64,000 nt of DNA from Candidatus Komeilibacteria bacterium (GTDB lineage Bacteria > Patescibacteriota > Patescibacteriia > UBA1558): positions 8,013 through 72,012 of the forward strand of contig JBLYPX010000001.1 of the NCBI GenBank assembly GCA_048538235.1, read 5' to 3'. Position 1 is the first letter of the stretch. Every line of letters starts with the position of its first letter. A program made the position numbers and the translations under genes. Of this stretch, positions 20,810-64,000 are shown in pieces. The notes under the pieces were generated by a model that saw only the letters and a program-made list of their open reading frames with translations, did no database searches and was not told the origin of the DNA.

Positions 20810-22306
20810 ATGGAACTAATAACTTATGCAAAAAAAGTAGGACCAGCAAAAGCAGATGTGTTTTTCTATCCGGTCTTACAAAATGATCAAGAGATTTTAA
20901 AATTAATTAAGAGTTTTGGGTATGCAGACGAAGAAGTAATTTTAGCCAGGCTTAAACGTGAAAACTTTCATGGTAAAAAAGGTCAGTTCTTTTTAATTCA
21001 TAGTGAAGATGTAGCTATGGTTATTTTAGGGACTGGTCAAAAAAAGAAAATGCTTGCTGAAGATTGGCGAGAGGCTGCAGGAAAGCTCGTGCAATATTTA
21101 TCTAAGTATGAAGCAAATAATATTGGGATTGTTTTAAGCTCTTGGCTTAAAGGTAATAATGATGTGTATAGATTAGGAGTTTCTTTGGCAGAAGGTATAA
21201 TGTTGGCTAGTTATAGATTCGATAAATATCTTAATGACGATGAAGATGATATTAAAATAGATATAGATAAATTTATTGTGTATTTAACAGCTGCTCAGAG
21301 GGTAAAGTTTAAAAAAGGTTGGGAACAAGGTTTAATGATGGCTATGGGCACTATTAAAGCTAGAGATTTAGTTAATGAACCAGCCGGACTTATGACACCC
21401 GCCTTTTTAGCTAAGGAAGCCTTAAAGATTGCTAAAGACAATAAACAGGTGAGTGTAAAGATTTTAGAAAAGGCAGATGTTAAAAAATTAAAGATGGGTG
21501 CTTTTATGGGAGTTGATCAAGGTTCTGAAGAGCCTTTGAAATTTATACACCTAGTATATAAACCAAAAGGTAAAGCTAAAGATAAGGTCGCTATTGTTGG
21601 TAAAGGTATTACTTTTGATAGTGGTGGGCTTAATATTAAAGTTGGTGATGGCATGACGCAGATGAAAGTAGATATGGCTGGAGCTGCTTCAGTCTTAGGC
21701 ATATTTTCAGCTATTAATGATTTATCTCCAAAAGTAGAAGTACATGGAATTATTGCAGCTTGTGAAAACATGCCATCTGGTAAAGCATATAAGCCGGGGG
21801 ATGTTTTAACTAATATGCAGGGTAAAACTATTGAAATTGGTAATACAGATGCAGAAGGTAGAGTAACATTGGCAGATTCATTAGCTTATGCACAAAAACA
21901 AGGTATTAAAACTATAGTAGATATGGCAACCTTAACCGGTGCTTGTATGATAGCATTGGGTACAGATTATACAGCTCTTTATGCTAATAACGATAAGTTT
22001 GCTAAAGAGTTATCTAAGTGTGCAGATATTACTGGTGAAAAAGTATGGCACATGCCACTGGTTTCAGAGTATAAGAAGTTAAATGAAAGTAAAATAGCTA
22101 ATGTAAGGAATGTTGCTAATACTAGATATGGTGGTTCTATTACGGCTGCTCTATTTTTGCAGGAGTTTATTGAAGAGGGTGTTACTTGGTCTCACTGGGA
22201 TATAGCTGGGCCTGCGTTTGCTGAAAAACCATTTAATAGTTATACACCAGTTGGTGGTGTTGGACATGGTGTAAGAACTTTACTTACTTGGCTTTTAGAC
22301 TATTAA
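20810..22306 (+). CDS. pepA: leucyl aminopeptidase (M17 family)
   Basis: VGKGITFDSGGLNIK, NTDAEGRVTLADSLAYA signature. Confidence 0.85.
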   Translation: MELITYAKKVGPAKADVFFYPVLQNDQEILKLIKSFGYADEEVILARLKRENFHGKKGQFFLIHSEDVAMVILGTGQKKKMLAEDWREAAGKLVQYLSKYEANNIGIVLSSWLKGNNDVYRLGVSLAEGIMLASYRFDKYLNDDEDDIKIDIDKFIVYLTAAQRVKFKKGWEQGLMMAMGTIKARDLVNEPAGLMTPAFLAKEALKIAKDNKQVSVKILEKADVKKLKMGAFMGVDQGSEEPLKFIHLVYKPKGKAKDKVAIVGKGITFDSGGLNIKVGDGMTQMKVDMAGAASVLGIFSAINDLSPKVEVHGIIAACENMPSGKAYKPGDVLTNMQGKTIEIGNTDAEGRVTLADSLAYAQKQGIKTIVDMATLTGACMIALGTDYTALYANNDKFAKELSKCADITGEKVWHMPLVSEYKKLNESKIANVRNVANTRYGGSITAALFLQEFIEEGVTWSHWDIAGPAFAEKPFNSYTPVGGVGHGVRTLLTWLLDY

Positions 22307-22366
22307 TCTAATATACAAAAAGATAGCTACAAATAGCTATTTTTTTGTTGTTTAACTAATAAATTA

Positions 22367-22395
22367 TTGACAAACTATGCAATATATGCTAAAAT
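22367..22395 (+). promoter_or_regulatory. consensus sigma70 promoter upstream of DGR target gene (TTGACA-17-TAAAAT)
   Basis: TTGACA 22367..22372, 17 nt spacer, TAAAAT 22390..22395; ~150 nt leader follows containing a 13 bp perfect inverted repeat. Confidence 0.55.
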
Positions 22396-22552
22396 AGATT
22401 ATTAATATAGTTCCTTGAAAGGCTATGAATTTAAGATATGAAGTGAGTATTGTGAGTATCTATTACTAGGTTCTTACTATACTCGCTTCATATGGTGTGA
22501 AGTAAGTCGTTATCCAAAGCGATTTTGGATGTTTAATTACAGGAGGTGTGCC

Positions 22553-23317
22553 ATGACTAAAGTGGTGAGCCGTACTTTATCAGTCCATAAGGAGCACGAA
22601 GTGCTTCTTAAACTAGAGACCGCTGGTCTCAACGATGAACTTGCTCAGGCAATCATTGATTCAAAGAGTAATCAACTTGCTACGAAAGTAGTTGAGCTGA
22701 TCAGTCGCAACGGCTACGAACCAAGTGTCATTGAAGAAAGAGCCCGTATGATCATGGGCAAGAACTTCTTTGGTGTTGCAGAAGCAATCAAGCATTTTAA
22801 AGTTAAACCCCTTAAAAAGCATACCAACGCTCTTGCCAAAGTACCTTTTACAGAAGAAATACTTGAAAAGTGTAAGGATACGCATATCCTTATCGCAGTA
22901 TTTCCTTTATCTCTTCTTGAGATAAGAAAGGCTGCTAAAGATCTTTTCTACTCCTCTGAAGGTGGCTGGTTTGAGAGCCAGGCTTTTGCTCAGGAAAGTT
23001 CAGAACCCCAATGGTGTCTCATTCAAAAAACTCCAGTTAAAGATTCAACATTCAAAAACTGGAAAGAACAACAGGCTCTTCTGCTAAAGAACGACGAAAC
23101 ACCCCCAGCCCATATAATGGTCTATACCATTATTGGACATTACCTGAATACAAAGGAACGAATCTTTGAAAACATCTGGGTTCGTACCTCATCCGTGGAT
23201 TCGGATGGCTACCGTGTGGTCGTCGGTGCTTTCGATTCGGGCGGTCTCAACGTCGACTACGACTGGGATGACAACCGTAATTCTTACCTCGGTGTCTCCT
23301 CCGCTCGGAAGTCCTGA
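22553..23317 (+). CDS. DGR target (variable) protein; C-terminal 40 aa encoded by the variable repeat, C-type-lectin-like NNNW...DDNRN motif
   Basis: AGGAGG RBS 7 nt before ATG 22553; higher GC than genome; C-terminal 120 bp is a mutated copy of the downstream TR. ORF-track start 22529 is upstream of the RBS. Confidence 0.8.
   Translation: MTKVVSRTLSVHKEHEVLLKLETAGLNDELAQAIIDSKSNQLATKVVELISRNGYEPSVIEERARMIMGKNFFGVAEAIKHFKVKPLKKHTNALAKVPFTEEILEKCKDTHILIAVFPLSLLEIRKAAKDLFYSSEGGWFESQAFAQESSEPQWCLIQKTPVKDSTFKNWKEQQALLLKNDETPPAHIMVYTIIGHYLNTKERIFENIWVRTSSVDSDGYRVVVGAFDSGGLNVDYDWDDNRNSYLGVSSARKS
23194..23313 (+). repeat. DGR variable repeat (VR)
   Basis: 120 bp, 110/120 identical to TR; all 10 mismatches are at TR adenines. 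Confidence 0.9.
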
Positions 23318-23336
23318 ATCTTGAGTTCTTGCTTAT

Positions 23337-23365
23337 CTATCCAATCCGCCTAGCGGATTGGATAG
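23337..23365. promoter_or_regulatory. hairpin immediately downstream of VR (12 bp perfect stem ctatccaatccg/cggattggatag, 5 nt loop)
   Basis: Seen directly in sequence, 24 nt after VR end; positionally analogous to the stem-loop/cruciform required for DGR homing in Bordetella phage BPP-1. Confidence 0.6.
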
Positions 23366-23757
23366 AATGACTTGTGCCTTTTGAATCCTTGAGTCCTCGT
23401 AAAAATTTTTGCGGGGACTCTTTTATTTTATATATACAGCTGTTATACTATTATTATCTTGCTAATGTAGATTCGGCTATTGCTTGATCTCGCGAGATGT
23501 CTCTTTTTACCCATATTGTATGGGGTTTGTTTACCAAAGTTTTAACTGCGGTAAGAGACTTTACCAGAATATCGTTGTTTAAGGATAACGATAGCGTGTG
23601 AATAAGAATAGAGATTAAACTTCTTATTTGTCTTTAGTGGAGATGTTCTATTATTAGGACTGCTCCCAAGTAAAATTCAGGAAGGAGAGAATATAGATCT
23701 GCATTGCAGGTGGTAAATCTCAACTTTTGGTGATGTGGATGAAGGCAAGTAATATTG

Positions 23758-23877
23758 CGTGGATTCGGATGACAACCGTGTGAACGTCGGTGATTTCGAT
23801 TCGGACGGTCTCAACGTCAACAACAACTGGGATGACAACCGTAATTCTAACCTCGGTGTCTCCTCCGCTCGGAAGTC
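23758..23877 (+). repeat. DGR template repeat (TR)
   Basis: Non-coding copy of VR, AAC-rich (encodes ...NVNNNWDDNRNSN... in VR frame); identical GC-rich 3' segment ggtgtctcctccgctcggaagtc (IMH-like) shared with VR. Confidence 0.9.
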
Positions 23878-23894
23878 TTTTCTCTATACTATTA

Positions 23895-23923
23895 AAAATA
23901 CTCTCCAATTAGGAGAGTATTTT
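23895..23923. terminator. hairpin between TR and avd 3' end (12 bp perfect stem aaaatactctcc/ggagagtatttt)
   Basis: Perfect stem with loop aatta; U-rich on both sides, so could terminate both the TR transcript (+) and avd (-). Confidence 0.5.
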
Positions 23924-23925
23924 AG

Positions 23926-24276
23926 TTAGTAGCTTTTGGTAGATTTTATCCATCCGCCAAGCATTCTACCTATTTCATCAACTAGCGTTTCAAGGGATAT
24001 GTATTTTTTAGAATCAATTGTTTTAGTATCTTTTAAAAGTCTTAAGAATATTCGTAAGAAGTTTAATTTAAGACTGGTTTTTTCTAGAATGGGAAGTTTC
24101 TCTGATTTTATTGCTTGGCTTGCCCACAGGATATTTTCAACAATATCTAGGATTATATTTTCACACCGTTGCCATGTGGTAAATCTATCTTGTTTAGGAA
24201 CACTGTTACGAAAACTGTGGAACAATTTGTATAGTTCATATGACTTTTTAAAAATAGGGATGTCAAAATCATTCAT
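23926..24276 (-). CDS. avd: DGR accessory variability determinant (Avd-like four-helix-bundle protein)
   Basis: 116 aa; C-terminal ETLVDEIGRMLGGWIKS matches Bordetella phage Avd LIAEVGRILGSWIAR; N-terminal YELYKLFHSF...PKQDRFTT typical of the S23-IVS/four-helix-bundle family. Opposite-strand ORF 23936..24283 is low complexity. Confidence 0.7.
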   Translation of the reverse strand: MNDFDIPIFKKSYELYKLFHSFRNSVPKQDRFTTWQRCENIILDIVENILWASQAIKSEKLPILEKTSLKLNFLRIFLRLLKDTKTIDSKKYISLETLVDEIGRMLGGWIKSTKSY

Positions 24277-24279
24277 GTT

Positions 24280-25329
24280 ATGAAAATTTATACTAATCTT
24301 TTTAAAAGAATAATATCCCTGGAAAATCTTTTTTTAGCGTGGGATAAATTTAAAGCCGATAAACAAACTAAGTCAGATGTACAAGAGTTTGCATTCTGTT
24401 TGGAAAAGAATATTTTTCAATTGCATAAAGATTTGAAGAGTGGGAATTATACACATGGCTCTTATACTTCTTTTTATATTCATGATCCAAAGTTACGTCA
24501 TATTCATAAGGCTGAAGTTAGGGATAGGGTTTTTCATCATGCTGTTTTTCAAATACTTAACCCTCTTTTTGAACCTACTTTTATTGCCACTTCTTTTTCG
24601 TGCCGAGTAAATAAAGGTACACATAAGGGAGTAGAGTGCGTGGAGAAGATGCTTAGAGTAGTAAGTAAGAATTATACTAAACCGTGTTTTGTCTTGAAAT
24701 GTGATGTTAAAAAGTTTTTTGACTCGGTTGATCATGATATTTTATTAAATATTTTAGGTAGAACAGTGAAAGATGATGTTGTTATGCGTCTTATGAAAGA
24801 AATTGTTGAAAGTTTTTCTAGTGGACGATCTACATTGTTTAGGTGGTGTGGAATTCCAATTGGTAATTTAACTTCGCAGTTGTTTGCTAATGTTTATATG
24901 AATGAATTTGATCATTTTGTGAAACATGAGCTAAAGGTTAAGTATTATGCTCGCTATACTGATGATTTTGTCATCATTCATAATGACATTAAGTATTTAA
25001 AAGGGTTAATTAGTAAGATAAATATTTTTTTACATGATAATTTAAGACTTGCCTTGCATCCGGGTAAGGTTTCCATAAATAAAGCTAGTCGTGGGGTAGA
25101 TTTTTTGGGATATATAATATTTCCTTATCATAAAATGGTACGCACCAAGACTAAAAATAGAGTTTTTAGAAAGTTAAGGCAAAAAATTAGAGTGTATAAA
25201 GTGGGAGAGTTACCCGAAGAGTCTCTTGAGCAAACACTTAATTCTTATTTGGGAGTTTTTTCTCACGCCAATGCTTTCGGGCTGGGTGAAAAATTGAAAA
25301 ACCAGTATTGGTTTTGGATAAATGAATAA
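24280..25329 (+). CDS. DGR reverse transcriptase
   Basis: RT motifs: FDSVDHDILL, GIPIGNLTSQLFANVYMNEFD (DGR-specific SQ in motif 4), YARYTDDFVI (YxDD), LGYIIFP; 349 aa typical size. Confidence 0.9.
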   Translation: MKIYTNLFKRIISLENLFLAWDKFKADKQTKSDVQEFAFCLEKNIFQLHKDLKSGNYTHGSYTSFYIHDPKLRHIHKAEVRDRVFHHAVFQILNPLFEPTFIATSFSCRVNKGTHKGVECVEKMLRVVSKNYTKPCFVLKCDVKKFFDSVDHDILLNILGRTVKDDVVMRLMKEIVESFSSGRSTLFRWCGIPIGNLTSQLFANVYMNEFDHFVKHELKVKYYARYTDDFVIIHNDIKYLKGLISKINIFLHDNLRLALHPGKVSINKASRGVDFLGYIIFPYHKMVRTKTKNRVFRKLRQKIRVYKVGELPEESLEQTLNSYLGVFSHANAFGLGEKLKNQYWFWINE

Positions 25330-25463
25330 TTTTTTTAAAAAACATTTTTATATTCAATGTTATACATAAATAATTAAAATGTCAATCCCTTTTTGATTTT
25401 ATACAGTCTAAAATTAATTATTTTAATAAAAACCCCTCTACCATGAAGAGGGGTTTTGTTGTT

Positions 25464-26024
25464 TTAGGAAGTTTTGAAGTAAATGTCTGTGAGTTGGCGG
25501 CCAAGTTGTTCGTCGTCCAGACCATAGCCGTGTAACCATTCATCACCATCGTATATGAAGCAGACTCTGTCATAAGCGCCCAGTCCTTTTTTTGAATGAT
25601 TGCGAGCCACAATTGCTACAATGATTACACGGTGTGCACCAGCAGCTAATAATTTCTTTTTAAGAAATTGAGTAGTGTCTCCGGTGTCAATAATGTCTTC
25701 AACCAAAACTATGTCTCGGTTTTTTACATCAGATCTCCACATGCTGGTAATTTTTGGAGCTACTTTTTTTTCAACACCTGGATAACTTGTCACACCGACT
25801 GCATCAATATGTACATCGATGTACAGTTTCCGATGAAGGTCTACTAGAAGATATTTTCCTCCAGTTTGAACCTCCATTAATATTGGGGGTTTTTTTGCTG
25901 TACTAAATTCACAACCTATCCAAGTAGCTAATTCTTCTATGCCACTGTTAATTTGTTCGTGGCTTAACCACTTTTTATAGATGCGGCCATTTACCTTGAT
26001 CCGACCATTACCTAATTCTTCCAT
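25464..26024 (-). CDS. hpt: hypoxanthine(-guanine) phosphoribosyltransferase
   Basis: PRPP-binding motif IVLVEDIIDTGDT; terminator aaaacccctct-accatga-agaggggtttt at ~25428..25458. Confidence 0.75.
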   Translation of the reverse strand: MEELGNGRIKVNGRIYKKWLSHEQINSGIEELATWIGCEFSTAKKPPILMEVQTGGKYLLVDLHRKLYIDVHIDAVGVTSYPGVEKKVAPKITSMWRSDVKNRDIVLVEDIIDTGDTTQFLKKKLLAAGAHRVIIVAIVARNHSKKGLGAYDRVCFIYDGDEWLHGYGLDDEQLGRQLTDIYFKTS

Positions 26025-61780: not shown

Positions 61781-63376
61781 CTACTTAGTCAATTTCTTAG
61801 TCATATATGTACCTTCTAGTTTATACCCTAGCTTTTTATAATATTCTCTGACGCCAATTCCAGAAATAACAGCTACTTTATTAAGTTTGTGTTTCTTGGT
61901 TATCTCCTCAGCCTTTAACATTAGTTTTTTACCCAGTCCCATATGTTGAGCCTTACCGATTTCTTCATCACTATTCTCTCCATAAACTGGTGTCATTTGT
62001 CCATAAACATGAAGTTCTCTAACCAACGATGAGTTTTCTAATTCAGGAAATATGTTTTTACTATTATCATTTATTCTTAATCTTAAGAAGCCATAAATTG
62101 TTTTTTTATCACTTGATTCATAACTCAAGAAATACTCAGTACCATCAGAGGCTGGATATTGTCTAACAATTAGTTTTGCCTTACCAACTTTTTTAATTTT
62201 AGATCTGGCTTCTCTGCAACGTAAACAATTACATTCAAGTCCGCGCTTTCTCATTTCCATTTGTAGTAGTTGTCTAAGATTGGTAATTTCATTACCGGCT
62301 TCAATACTTTCTTTAGGTATATCTCTTATTAATCTATTGATTCTAATCCAAGGAGGAGTAATAGTCTTAACTTTAATTAATAATTCTTTTAATTGTTTAT
62401 CTGAATATGGTTTGTATTTACCAGATTGGAACCATCTGTACAAAGGAGCATATTCATTAACAACACAAGGATATATTTTAATTTGATCAGGGGCTAAGTC
62501 TGGAGATGAATAAATATATTCAAACATTTTTAAGTCTTTAGCTGGTGTTGAACCTGGTAAATCTGGCATATAGTGATGGTCTACTTTTAGACCAACCTGT
62601 TTCAACTGTTTTGTTGCTTTAATAGATTCTTCAATAGTATGGCCACGATTAATATATTTTAGTATTTTATTATCTGTATGCTGAACTCCTAACTGCACCC
62701 TAGTACAACCAAGCTCTCTCATTCTTTTAATCTCTTTTTTATCTATTAAATCTGGTCTAGTTTCTAATGTTAAACCAATTATTTTATATTTTGTGTTCTC
62801 ATTTATCTTTTGTTCTTTAGCTAGTCCCTTGTAGGCTCTATTTTTTTTACCAAAAGTATTACAAGCTTGGAATAATCTACCAATGAACCAAGTTTGGTAT
62901 GCTTTTGGATAGGCAGACCAAGAGCCGCCCAACACTAATATCTCAATTTTATCTACCGCGTGTCCATTAGCCTCCAGAGCTGTTATTCTTTGTGTTACTT
63001 GATTAAATGGATTAAAAGCATTACGCACAGCTCTTTGTGCAGCTGGTTCATTAGATAAATAGCTTTTAGGCATATTAGGTTCAGCTGGACAATATACACA
63101 TCCTCCAGGACAAGGGAAAGGTTTTGTTAAAACAGTTATAACACTAACGCCAGATAATGTACGAACTGGTCCTTTGATTAAGAACTGTTCTAAGTTAATA
63201 TTTTTCTTTATTTTCTTTGTTTTTAACAATTGACGATAGGTTGAAAGTAAAGTAGCATTAGAGGGAGGAGTAAGGTTTAAAGAATTACAGACTTTTCTTT
63301 TCACATTCAAAAAATCTGCTTGGTTTGCAGGTTTTTCCTTAAGGAGTTTAATTATTACTTTTTGTAAATCTGACAT
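61781..63376 (-). CDS. Elp3-family radical SAM / GNAT acetyltransferase (tRNA wobble-uridine modification enzyme homolog)
   Basis: Radical SAM cluster motif CPGGCVYCP (Cx4Cx2C as in Elp3), TIM-barrel region, C-terminal GNAT motif (QHMGLGKKLMLKAEEI). Confidence 0.75.
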   Translation of the reverse strand: MSDLQKVIIKLLKEKPANQADFLNVKRKVCNSLNLTPPSNATLLSTYRQLLKTKKIKKNINLEQFLIKGPVRTLSGVSVITVLTKPFPCPGGCVYCPAEPNMPKSYLSNEPAAQRAVRNAFNPFNQVTQRITALEANGHAVDKIEILVLGGSWSAYPKAYQTWFIGRLFQACNTFGKKNRAYKGLAKEQKINENTKYKIIGLTLETRPDLIDKKEIKRMRELGCTRVQLGVQHTDNKILKYINRGHTIEESIKATKQLKQVGLKVDHHYMPDLPGSTPAKDLKMFEYIYSSPDLAPDQIKIYPCVVNEYAPLYRWFQSGKYKPYSDKQLKELLIKVKTITPPWIRINRLIRDIPKESIEAGNEITNLRQLLQMEMRKRGLECNCLRCREARSKIKKVGKAKLIVRQYPASDGTEYFLSYESSDKKTIYGFLRLRINDNSKNIFPELENSSLVRELHVYGQMTPVYGENSDEEIGKAQHMGLGKKLMLKAEEITKKHKLNKVAVISGIGVREYYKKLGYKLEGTYMTKKLTK

Positions 63377-63377
63377 T

Positions 63378-64000
63378 ATGCGAAAAGATTTAAAAGAAAA
63401 TTTATTAAAAAAAGTTAGTGATGAATATGATTATTTAGCTGACCAATTTTCACTTACTAGACAACGTCAATGGGGTGATACAGAATTCTTAGCCTCGTAT
63501 GTAAAAGAGGGAGATAGTATTGTAGACTGGGGTTGTGGTAATGGAAGATTATATGGTCTGTTTGTAAATAGCAATATTTCCTATCTAGGTATAGACAATT
63601 GTAGGGGATTGATTGAAAAAGCGCAAGAGAAGTACCCAGATATTAATTGGCAAGTAGGTTCAGATATTCCATACAATTCTTATGATAAAATATTCGCAAT
63701 TGCTTCTTGGCATCATTTACCAGGTGAAGAATTAAGGTTACAGAAATTGAAAGAATTTAATGAAAGGTTAAAAGATGGTGGTTATCTATTATTAACAACT
63801 TGGAACTTAAGGCAAAAGAAATATTTCTGGCTATGGTTTAGAAATAATATACGTAACATATTTAGTGGCTATGATTGGAATGATGTTTTAGTACCATGGA
63901 AGTCAAGAGAAAAAGTTATTTACAGGTATTACCATAGTATTTCTAAAAGACGGTTGATAAAATTTGTTAAGGAAGCTGGGTTTGAAATTGAAAAATGTTA
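63378..64000 (+). CDS. class I SAM-dependent methyltransferase (3' end beyond window)
   Basis: Motif I VDWGCGNGRL, motif post-I GIDNC, motif II FAIASWHH; ORF runs to window edge. Confidence 0.55.
   Translation, partial: MRKDLKENLLKKVSDEYDYLADQFSLTRQRQWGDTEFLASYVKEGDSIVDWGCGNGRLYGLFVNSNISYLGIDNCRGLIEKAQEKYPDINWQVGSDIPYNSYDKIFAIASWHHLPGEELRLQKLKEFNERLKDGGYLLLTTWNLRQKKYFWLWFRNNIRNIFSGYDWNDVLVPWKSREKVIYRYYHSISKRRLIKFVKEAGFEIEKC

What the first reader, a model, noticed from the sequence alone, without database searches (positions are those of the whole stretch)
23758..24283. Unusual DGR architecture: antisense avd between TR and RT, and divergent avd/RT start codons 3 bp apart
The TR is on the plus strand and is followed by a strong hairpin (23895..23923), consistent with a short stand-alone TR RNA. 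avd is encoded on the minus strand, so a plus-strand TR transcript would read antisense into it. The avd start (complement of 24274..24276) and RT start (24280) leave no intergenic promoter space. Each promoter must therefore lie inside the other gene, or the RT is co-transcribed from the TR promoter through antisense avd. This arrangement differs from the canonical avd-TR-rt co-directional cassette.
Basis: partly seen in the sequence, partly recalled or inferred. Interest (0 to 1): 0.6.

Follow-up and report, generated by a model that had tools for sequence, protein, structure and literature searches.

The report
Standard CPR-type DGR cassette layout
The backwards-facing avd gene between the template repeat and the reverse transcriptase is real, but it is the normal, already published layout of diversity-generating retroelements in Candidate Phyla Radiation bacteria, so it is ordinary for this lineage.

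Summary
A complete DGR is present: target gene with VR, TR on the plus strand, a strong hairpin after TR, a true Avd gene on the minus strand, and an RT whose ATG lies 3 bp from the avd ATG. The claim that this is unusual is not supported. Wu et al. 2018 (NAR 46:11) catalogued it as architecture B3, "TR-(avd)-RT", found in 90% of their CPR DGR set. The window's RT is identical to a Candidatus Komeilibacteria MAG protein. In 140 of 141 related loci, avd sits head-to-head with RT. In the closest relatives the start codons are 0-14 bp apart. This genome rarely uses Shine-Dalgarno sites and has another unrelated gene pair with starts 1 bp apart, so the missing promoter space is not a paradox.

Beyond the finding: TR is preceded by a conserved, covariation-supported structured leader of about 300 nt (23457..23757) with its own -10 box. 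The post-TR hairpin is conserved in position but not in sequence. Most likely one ~470-nt non-coding RNA (leader, TR, hairpin) is transcribed separately, while avd and RT are separate, probably near-leaderless, divergent transcripts. I found no description of the leader in Rfam 15 or the searchable literature. That is the only possibly new element.

The parts
22529..23317 (+). DGR target gene (262 aa, no Pfam or NCBIfam match); the variable repeat is in its last 41 codons
   Evidence: ORF list; family scans empty; VR at the 3' end
23194..23313 (+). Variable repeat (VR)
   Evidence: 120-bp match to TR with 10 mismatches, all at TR adenines
23336..23366 (+). 14-bp hairpin just downstream of VR, at the position of the inverted repeat that follows IMH in characterised DGRs
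   Evidence: Fold of 23318..23380: -25.6 kcal/mol, z = -6.0; role by analogy with the Bordetella and Legionella DGRs
23391..23420 (+). Intrinsic-terminator-like hairpin plus T run; probable end of the target-gene transcript
   Evidence: Terminator scan: 13 pairs, tail TTTTATTTTA
23444..23449 (+). -10-like hexamer TATACT, 7 nt upstream of the conserved start of the leader; probable promoter of the TR RNA (inferred)
   Evidence: A TATAAT-like hexamer aligns at the same place in 24 related loci, 8-11 nt before the conserved block TCTTGCTAATG / ATAGGCTAATG
23457..23757 (+). Conserved structured non-coding leader directly 5' of TR. Eight helices: H1 23460-62/23492-94; H2 23470-77/23482-89; H3 23560-64/23598-602; H4 23570-79/23584-93; H5 23624-35/23741-52; H6 23639-48/23657-66; H7 23680-90/23718-28; H8 23697-700/23708-11
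   Evidence: nhmmer finds it in 69 of 161 loci. RNAalifold gives 57 pairs, 48 with compensatory changes. 93.7% of cells are paired against 37-50% when partners are slid; covariation score 0.748 against 0.10-0.18; 0 of 500 shuffles reach it. A covariance model of the 3' domain hits the window once, at 23619..23758, and 114 of 161 sources in all. Helix coordinates. No Rfam match
23758..23877 (+). Template repeat (TR)
   Evidence: adenine-specific differences from VR
23895..23923 (+). Stem-loop 18 nt after TR and 2 nt before the avd stop codon, flanked by an A run and a T run. Candidate Avd-binding stem-loop and/or bidirectional terminator for the convergent TR RNA and avd mRNA
   Evidence: z = -5.5 on the plus strand and -5.2 on the minus strand. 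Hairpins with stem >=10 occur after TR in 52% of 103 loci against 4% of control windows. A T run follows the stem in 53 of 90 loci, while an A run precedes it in 16 of 90. The BPP-1 Avd-binding stem-loop lies at the same relative position
23926..24276 (-). avd (116 aa), accessory variability determinant, convergent with TR and divergent from RT
   Evidence: NF033474 81.5 bits (cut-off 80); PF22296 62.4 bits (cut-off 40)
24277..24279 (.). 3-bp gap between the divergent avd and RT start codons (CAT gtt ATG)
   Evidence: gaps of 0-14 bp in the 12 closest relatives
24280..25329 (+). DGR reverse transcriptase (349 aa), containing IPIGNLTSQ, which fits my recalled DGR signature (I/L)GxxxSQ
   Evidence: RVT_1 2.6e-23; 100% identical to a Ca. 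Komeilibacteria MAG protein; 7690 homologues with E<=1e-10; translation
25429..25457 (+). Terminator-like hairpin after RT, also detected on the minus strand (25451..25433)

Best explanation
This is an ordinary chromosomal DGR of the CPR/Patescibacteria type, architecture B3: target(VR) - TR - (avd, reverse strand) - RT.

Shown:
- All four components are present and intact.
- The layout is the clade norm.
- TR is preceded by a conserved structured RNA leader and followed by a conserved-position hairpin.

Inferred mechanism, with four transcription units:
1. The target gene, ending at the terminator 23391..23420.
2. A non-coding DGR RNA of about 470 nt. It would start near 23457 from a -10 box at 23444..23449. 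It contains the leader, TR, and the 3' stem-loop 23895..23923, where it most likely ends.
3. avd, transcribed towards that same stem-loop.
4. RT, transcribed away from avd.

avd and RT are probably made as leaderless or near-leaderless mRNAs, each with its -10 element inside the first codons of the other gene. This organism seldom uses Shine-Dalgarno sites. RT-Avd then binds the RNA, copies TR into adenine-mutagenised cDNA and replaces VR, as in characterised DGRs. The 12-bp helix H5 abuts the 5' edge of TR. It may act as the cDNA stop that an upstream:downstream duplex provides in phage BPP-1.
For: - Components.
- Published class: B3 = TR-(avd)-RT, 90% of the CPR set (Wu et al. 2018, PMC5758913).
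- Host: RT 100% identical to a Ca. Komeilibacteria MAG protein; all named homologues listed are from Patescibacteria.
- Layout in relatives: 140 of 141 loci with at least 500 nt upstream have avd head-to-head with RT. In 103 loci TR lies on the RT strand and abuts the avd 3' end.
- Start-codon gaps of 0-14 bp in the closest relatives.
- Only 8 of 50 long ORFs in the window have an SD-like motif. A radical-SAM/GNAT gene and a methyltransferase gene have divergent starts 1 bp apart at 63376/63378.
- Synonymous-site entropy drops to 0.70-0.76 of expectation in RT codons 2-13 and avd codons 1-8, against about 0.92 elsewhere. This is consistent with embedded signals.
- Leader: conserved -10 box and RNA start; covariation; model hits always end at the TR start.
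- Hairpin: enriched after TR and followed by a T run on the TR strand. In 59 of 90 loci it lies inside the avd ORF, so there it cannot be the avd terminator.
- The proposed 474-nt RNA folds with z = -5.0.
Against: - There are no transcript data. Promoter positions are inferred from conservation only.
- The sigma-70 consensus scan finds no more sites than chance in this AT-rich region (11 found, 11.6 expected). It did not flag the 23895 hairpin as a terminator.
- Reduced synonymous variation at gene 5' ends is a general phenomenon and does not prove embedded promoters.
- In BPP-1 about 140 nt downstream of TR are essential. If that holds here, the RNA must continue into antisense avd.
- The spacing from the hairpin to the conserved GGW codons of avd is rather constant (median 23 nt, IQR 20-26), which could hint at that.
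Confidence: 0.7

Rival explanations
1. BPP-1-like RNA layout. The functional DGR RNA continues past the hairpin for about 100 nt into antisense avd. That stretch would supply the priming site, the stop duplex and the RT-binding elements, so the 3' third of avd would be dual-coded.
For: - In BPP-1, 140 nt downstream of TR are essential, and the first element after TR is an Avd-binding stem-loop.
- The distance from the hairpin to the GGW codons is fairly constant (median 23 nt).
- By eye, the sequence upstream of TR (GGTG..GGATG) is partly complementary to the antisense GGW codons.
Against: - A column-pair scan found no conserved or covarying helix between the region upstream of TR and antisense avd.
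- The cognate versus non-cognate duplex test was null (p = 0.48).
- Synonymous-site entropy in avd codons 98-111 is near background (0.89-0.93). Only the last ~8 codons, which overlap the hairpin in many loci, drop to 0.84.
- A T run follows the hairpin in 53 of 90 loci.
- A 300-nt conserved leader exists on the other side of TR that could carry these functions.
Confidence: 0.2
2. Co-transcription. RT has no promoter of its own and is translated from a long plus-strand transcript that starts at the TR promoter and reads through antisense avd.
For: TR and RT are on the same strand with only 402 nt between them. No convincing sigma-70 site precedes RT. In BPP-1, avd, TR and brt lie on one strand, which would allow a single transcription unit.
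Against: - A strong hairpin, usually with a T run, separates TR from avd and RT.
- The RNA model places the leader, and so the TR cassette, on the strand opposite to RT in L026, L029, L036 and L106. RT expression there cannot depend on the TR promoter.
- Wu et al. note the same for other DGRs.
- In more distant relatives a -10-like hexamer sits about 7 nt before the RT start.
- Head-on collision with avd transcription would oppose both genes.
Confidence: 0.1
3. The minus-strand ORF is not a gene (chance ORF or decayed avd), and the element works without Avd or is inactive.
For: None beyond the unusual orientation.
Against: - Full-length matches above curated cut-offs to two Avd models.
- An intact ORF is conserved in 140 relatives.
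- The plus-strand overlapping ORF has no match.
- The 10 adenine-specific VR/TR differences are consistent with past activity.
Confidence: 0.01

Closest known systems
CPR/Patescibacteria DGRs, cassette architecture B3 'TR-(avd)-RT' (Wu et al. 2018, NAR 46:11); the Patescibacteria-restricted DGR clade 2 of Roux et al. 2021
   Same: Same component order and orientations, a single adjacent target gene, and a CPR host. 140 of 141 relatives fetched here share the layout.
   Different: Nothing in the architecture differs. The papers I could read do not describe the 0-14 bp spacing of the divergent starts, the structured leader 5' of TR, or the hairpin 3' of TR.
Bordetella phage BPP-1 DGR (mtd-avd-TR-brt) and its DGR RNA (Handa et al. 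2018; bioRxiv 10.1101/2023.10.23.563531)
   Same: RT plus Avd; adenine-specific TR-to-VR differences; a hairpin downstream of VR; a stem-loop of about 11 bp immediately after TR; a duplex at the 5' edge of TR (here helix H5).
   Different: avd is inverted and lies where the 140-nt spacer (Sp) lies in BPP-1. The long conserved structured RNA is 5' of TR rather than 3'. The partner strand of the duplex next to TR comes from upstream rather than downstream. Three or four transcription units replace a same-strand cassette.
Rfam RT-10 and the other RT-1..RT-19 motifs (Weinberg et al. 2017), structured RNAs next to bacterial RT genes
   Same: A structured RNA associated with an RT gene. RT-10 lies in the BPP-1 TR-brt spacer.
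   Different: No Rfam 15 family matches 22300..25600 even at E <= 1. The leader here is 5' of TR and separated from RT by avd.

Membership tests
Diversity-generating retroelement (DGR) | TR/VR repeat pair whose differences fall at adenines of TR | tested here: met
   120 bp, 10 of 10 mismatches at TR adenines
Diversity-generating retroelement (DGR) | Reverse transcriptase of the DGR type next to TR, with the motif (I/L)GxxxSQ | tested here: met
   RVT_1 2.6e-23. The sequence IPIGNLTSQ is in the translation. That this motif is a DGR signature is from my own knowledge. No DGR-specific RT profile was available in the libraries
Diversity-generating retroelement (DGR) | VR at the 3' end of a protein-coding target gene | tested here: met
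   VR 23194..23313 lies in ORF 22529..23317
Diversity-generating retroelement (DGR) | Accessory protein Avd | tested here: met
   NF033474 81.5 bits (cut-off 80); PF22296 62.4 bits (cut-off 40)
Diversity-generating retroelement (DGR) | Ongoing mutagenic retrohoming (cDNA made, VR varies in the population) | not testable with these tools
   Needs metagenomic read variation at VR or an experiment
Architecture B3, TR-(avd)-RT (Wu et al. 2018) | Order TR, avd, RT with avd alone on the reverse strand | tested here: met
   Coordinates and strands; definition
Architecture B3, TR-(avd)-RT (Wu et al. 2018) | CPR host lineage (typical, not strictly defining) | tested here: met
   RT identical to a Ca. 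Komeilibacteria MAG protein; related loci are almost all Patescibacteria MAGs
BPP-1-type DGR RNA organisation | Stem-loop immediately downstream of TR (Avd-binding element) | tested here: met
   Structure and position only: 23895..23923; conserved position in relatives. Binding not testable
BPP-1-type DGR RNA organisation | About 140 nt of non-coding spacer between TR and RT carrying the primer, stop duplex and RT-binding stem-loop | tested here: not met
   The interval is occupied by antisense avd. Synonymous sites there are not constrained beyond the hairpin
BPP-1-type DGR RNA organisation | Duplex between the sequence upstream of TR and the sequence downstream of TR | tested here: inconclusive
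   No conserved or covarying upstream:downstream helix and a null duplex test. A covarying 12-bp helix next to TR is instead formed within the leader

The most novel reading that the evidence does not exclude
CPR B3-type DGRs may use a 'permuted' DGR RNA. With avd inverted into the place of the 3' spacer, the RNA elements that recruit RT-Avd and bound cDNA synthesis would sit in a covariation-supported 5' leader of about 260-310 nt. Only a terminal stem-loop, acting as Avd grapple and/or terminator, would remain 3' of TR.

Features of the leader: eight helices, including two hairpins whose apical sequence in most relatives reads UACG (a UNCG-type tetraloop), and a 12-bp helix abutting the 5' edge of TR.

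The leader is in neither Rfam 15 nor the literature I could search. It would be an undescribed RNA component of what Roux et al. describe as a Patescibacteria-restricted DGR clade.
Probability: 0.35. Interest if true: 0.6.

Novelty: already known. Interest (0 to 1): 0.25.

Why it matters
As posed, the finding matters little. It re-discovers the standard cassette layout of CPR DGRs, and the tight head-to-head gene packing reflects the compact genome, in which few genes carry Shine-Dalgarno-like sites.

The useful by-product is a concrete, testable picture of the template RNA in this clade: a conserved promoter, a structured 5' leader, TR, and a 3' stem-loop. If the leader proves to be the RT-Avd recognition module, the RNA architecture worked out for phage BPP-1 would not be universal. 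It would also give exact RNA boundaries for reconstituting a CPR DGR.

Tried and rejected
- RNAduplex of cognate versus non-cognate upstream and downstream segments was uninformative (p = 0.48). The motifs are conserved in all loci and the algorithm allows large loops.
- My early reading of AATAAAAT at 23669..23676 as the -10 of the TR RNA was rejected. The alignment of the whole intergenic region shows it is an internal conserved single-stranded motif of a longer RNA.
- Pairing by eye of GGTG..GGATG with antisense GGW codons was not borne out by the column-pair scan.
- The Rfam scan at E <= 1 gave no hit.
- The sigma-70 scan gave chance-level results.
- Paul et al. 2017 (Nat Microbiol), the main CPR DGR paper, is not held. 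I therefore cannot exclude that it mentions the leader.
- The supplementary tables of Wu et al. are not held.
- The plus-strand ORF 23936..24283 was rejected as a gene.
- The hairpin criterion of stem >=7 was too lax (36% of control windows) and was replaced by thresholds of >=9 to >=12.

Full report
**What is there.** The region holds a complete diversity-generating retroelement.
- The 262-aa ORF 22529..23317 ends in a 120-bp variable repeat (VR, 23194..23313). It matches a template repeat (TR, 23758..23877) on the same strand.
- All 10 differences lie at TR adenines. No other copy exists in the window.
- The minus-strand ORF 23926..24276 is a genuine Avd. It scores 81.5 bits on NCBIfam NF033474 (cut-off 80) and 62.4 bits on Pfam bAvd (cut-off 40).
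- The overlapping plus-strand ORF matches nothing.
- The RT ORF 24280..25329 matches RVT_1 and contains IPIGNLTSQ, which fits the (I/L)GxxxSQ signature of DGR RTs (my own knowledge).

**Gene starts and hairpin.** The RT start is secure. The top 120 homologues listed are almost all 349 aa and cover 99-100% of the query, and M1, Y4 and I11 are invariant. The avd N-terminus is conserved among close relatives. The two ATGs are separated by 3 bp. The hairpin 23895..23923 is strong on both strands, with z about -5.5 and -5.2.

**Is the layout unusual? No.**
- Wu et al. 2018 (PMC5758913) classify DGR cassettes and define B3 as "TR-(avd)-RT", with parentheses marking the reverse strand. [quoted passage not shown] They also note that components on different strands imply at least two transcription units.
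- The window's RT is 100% identical to a protein of a Candidatus Komeilibacteria MAG on an 860-kb contig. 7690 homologues score E <= 1e-10, and all the named ones listed are from Patescibacteria.
- I fetched 160 related loci, 80 from GTDB species genomes and 80 from metagenomes. Of the 141 loci (the 160 plus the window) with at least 500 nt upstream of RT, 140 have avd on the opposite strand, head-to-head with RT.
- In 103 loci a TR with adenine-biased mismatches lies on the RT strand and abuts the avd 3' end.
- In the 12 closest relatives the gap between the divergent start codons is 0, 0, 0, 3, 4, 4, 8, 8, 14, 14, 14 or 21 bp, and it is 3 bp in the window. The 3-bp spacing is therefore typical of the clade.

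**The 'no promoter space' puzzle.**
- Only 8 of 50 long ORFs in the window carry an SD-like motif, and by eye many have a -10-like hexamer a few nt before the ATG. This suggests that leaderless or near-leaderless mRNAs are common here.
- An unrelated pair, a radical-SAM/GNAT gene and a methyltransferase gene, has divergent starts 1 bp apart at 63376/63378.
- Synonymous-site entropy falls to 0.70-0.76 of expectation in RT codons 2-13 and avd codons 1-8, against about 0.92 elsewhere. This fits signals embedded in each gene's first codons, although 5'-end codon bias is a general effect.
- In the close relatives, the antisense of RT codons 3-5 reads TATAAA-like at a fixed distance from the junction (by inspection). 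This is inference, not proof.

**The TR transcript.** Aligning the whole interval from VR to TR showed that conservation does not stop near TR.
- A TATAAT-like hexamer (window TATACT, 23444..23449) lies 8-11 nt before a conserved block (TCTTGCTAATG, window 23457). It is followed by about 260 nt (about 300 in the window) of conserved sequence running up to TR.
- nhmmer finds this leader in 69 of 161 loci.
- RNAalifold predicts 57 pairs in 8 helices, 48 of them with compensatory changes.
- On that alignment 93.7% of cells pair, against 37-50% when partners are slid by 1-3 columns. The covariation score is 0.748 against 0.10-0.18, and 0 of 500 shuffles reach it.
- A covariance model of the 3' domain (139 positions) hits the window once, at 23619..23758 (130 bits). 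It hits 114 of 161 sources in all, each time ending at the TR start. On 76 of those hits, 95.7% of cells pair against 41-51% when slid (this alignment is fitted to the model).
- Helix H5 (23624-35 with 23741-52, 12 bp) ends 5 nt before TR.
- Two hairpins (H2, H4) have the apical sequence UACG in most relatives (by inspection).
- No Rfam 15 family matches the region. I found no description of the leader in the searchable literature. Paul et al. 2017 could not be read.

**The hairpin after TR.**
- Hairpins with stem >=10 occur within 75 nt after TR in 52% of 103 loci against 4% of control windows. For stem >=12 the figures are 27% against 0.9%.
- The hairpin sequences differ between loci.
- A TTTT run follows the stem in 53 of 90 loci, whereas an AAAA run precedes it in only 16 of 90. 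In 59 of 90 loci the hairpin lies inside the last codons of avd. In those loci it acts on the TR strand and cannot be the avd terminator.
- In the window's subclade the hairpin sits in the 48-nt TR-avd spacer, flanked by an A run and a T run. That is the shape of a bidirectional terminator for two convergent transcripts.
- In phage BPP-1 the first element after TR is an 11-bp stem-loop that grips the Avd pentamer. [quoted passage not shown] The two roles are not exclusive.

**Does the RNA need antisense avd?** BPP-1 needs 140 nt 3' of TR. Here that stretch is antisense avd.
- Against a requirement: no conserved or covarying helix links the region upstream of TR with antisense avd. Synonymous sites in avd codons 98-111 are near background, at 0.89-0.93. 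A T run usually follows the hairpin.
- For a requirement: the distance from the hairpin to the GGW codons of avd is fairly constant, with median 23 nt and IQR 20-26.
- I rate this rival at about 0.2.

**Is RT co-transcribed from the TR promoter?** This is disfavoured by the hairpin. It is also disfavoured by the loci where the RNA model places the leader on the opposite strand to RT: L026, L029, L036 and L106.

**Most likely mechanism.** An independent non-coding RNA of about 470 nt (23457..~23925; fold z = -5.0) carries the leader, TR and the terminal stem-loop. avd converges on it. RT diverges from avd. Both proteins are made from short-leader mRNAs. RT-Avd then binds the RNA and performs adenine-mutagenic cDNA synthesis and retrohoming into VR. 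The components, the layout and the RNA structure are shown. The transcript ends, the promoters and the functional role of the leader are inferred.

**Verdict.** The interpretation as an unusual architecture is not supported, because the layout is already known as B3, the CPR norm. The structured 5' leader is the only possibly new element and is reported as the novel case.

Noticed in passing
window 23457..23757 (and L001-L160, immediately 5' of each TR): A conserved structured non-coding leader of about 260-310 nt lies directly upstream of TR. It has its own conserved -10 box, eight covariation-supported helices and a 12-bp helix abutting TR. It has no Rfam match and I found no description of it in the searchable literature. 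In the window it carries an extra insertion of about 50 nt (about 23503..23555).
   Followed up: yes
related loci, e.g. L042 around 2960-2985, L057, L065, L067, L071; absent from the window: A homopolymeric G run of 7-13 nt lies in the avd-RT divergent gap in 64 of 140 relatives. Elsewhere in the same loci there are only 8 G or C runs of >=7 in 711 kb. It is often followed directly by a -10-like hexamer and, about 7 nt later, the RT start codon. Its position and variable length suggest slipped-strand phase variation of RT and/or avd expression. L054 has a (GT)n tract instead.
   Followed up: partly
window 63374..63380: A radical-SAM/GNAT (ELP3-like) gene on the minus strand and a methyltransferase gene on the plus strand have divergent start codons 1 bp apart (gaCATtATGcg). 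Tight head-to-head packing is therefore a genome-wide habit and not specific to the DGR.
   Followed up: yes
whole window: Only 8 of 50 ORFs of >=150 aa have an SD-like motif upstream. GC content is 33.6%. By eye, many starts are preceded within about 10 nt by a TATAAT-like hexamer, which suggests widespread leaderless or non-SD translation initiation.
   Followed up: partly
L036 1731..1868 (-), L029 309..409 (-), L026 237..367 (-), L106 287..399 (-): These are rare relatives in which the leader, and so the TR cassette, is on the strand opposite to RT. In L029 the order on that strand is avd-leader-TR (BPP-1-like order, divergent from RT). In L036, avd is also flipped relative to RT and lies about 1.1 kb upstream of it.
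   Followed up: partly
more distant loci, e.g. L041, L055, L065, L066, L069, L078 (avd 3' ends): Avd carries a C-terminal tail (...KQNSP..GEK) whose codons are the antisense of the post-TR hairpin and its T run. The hairpin is therefore embedded in the avd ORF. The stop codon position varies more than the hairpin position does.
   Followed up: partly
window 23336..23366 and 23391..23420: Two successive hairpins follow the target gene. The first is a 14-bp stem right after VR, at the position of the IMH-associated inverted repeat. The second is a separate terminator-like hairpin with a T run.
   Followed up: partly
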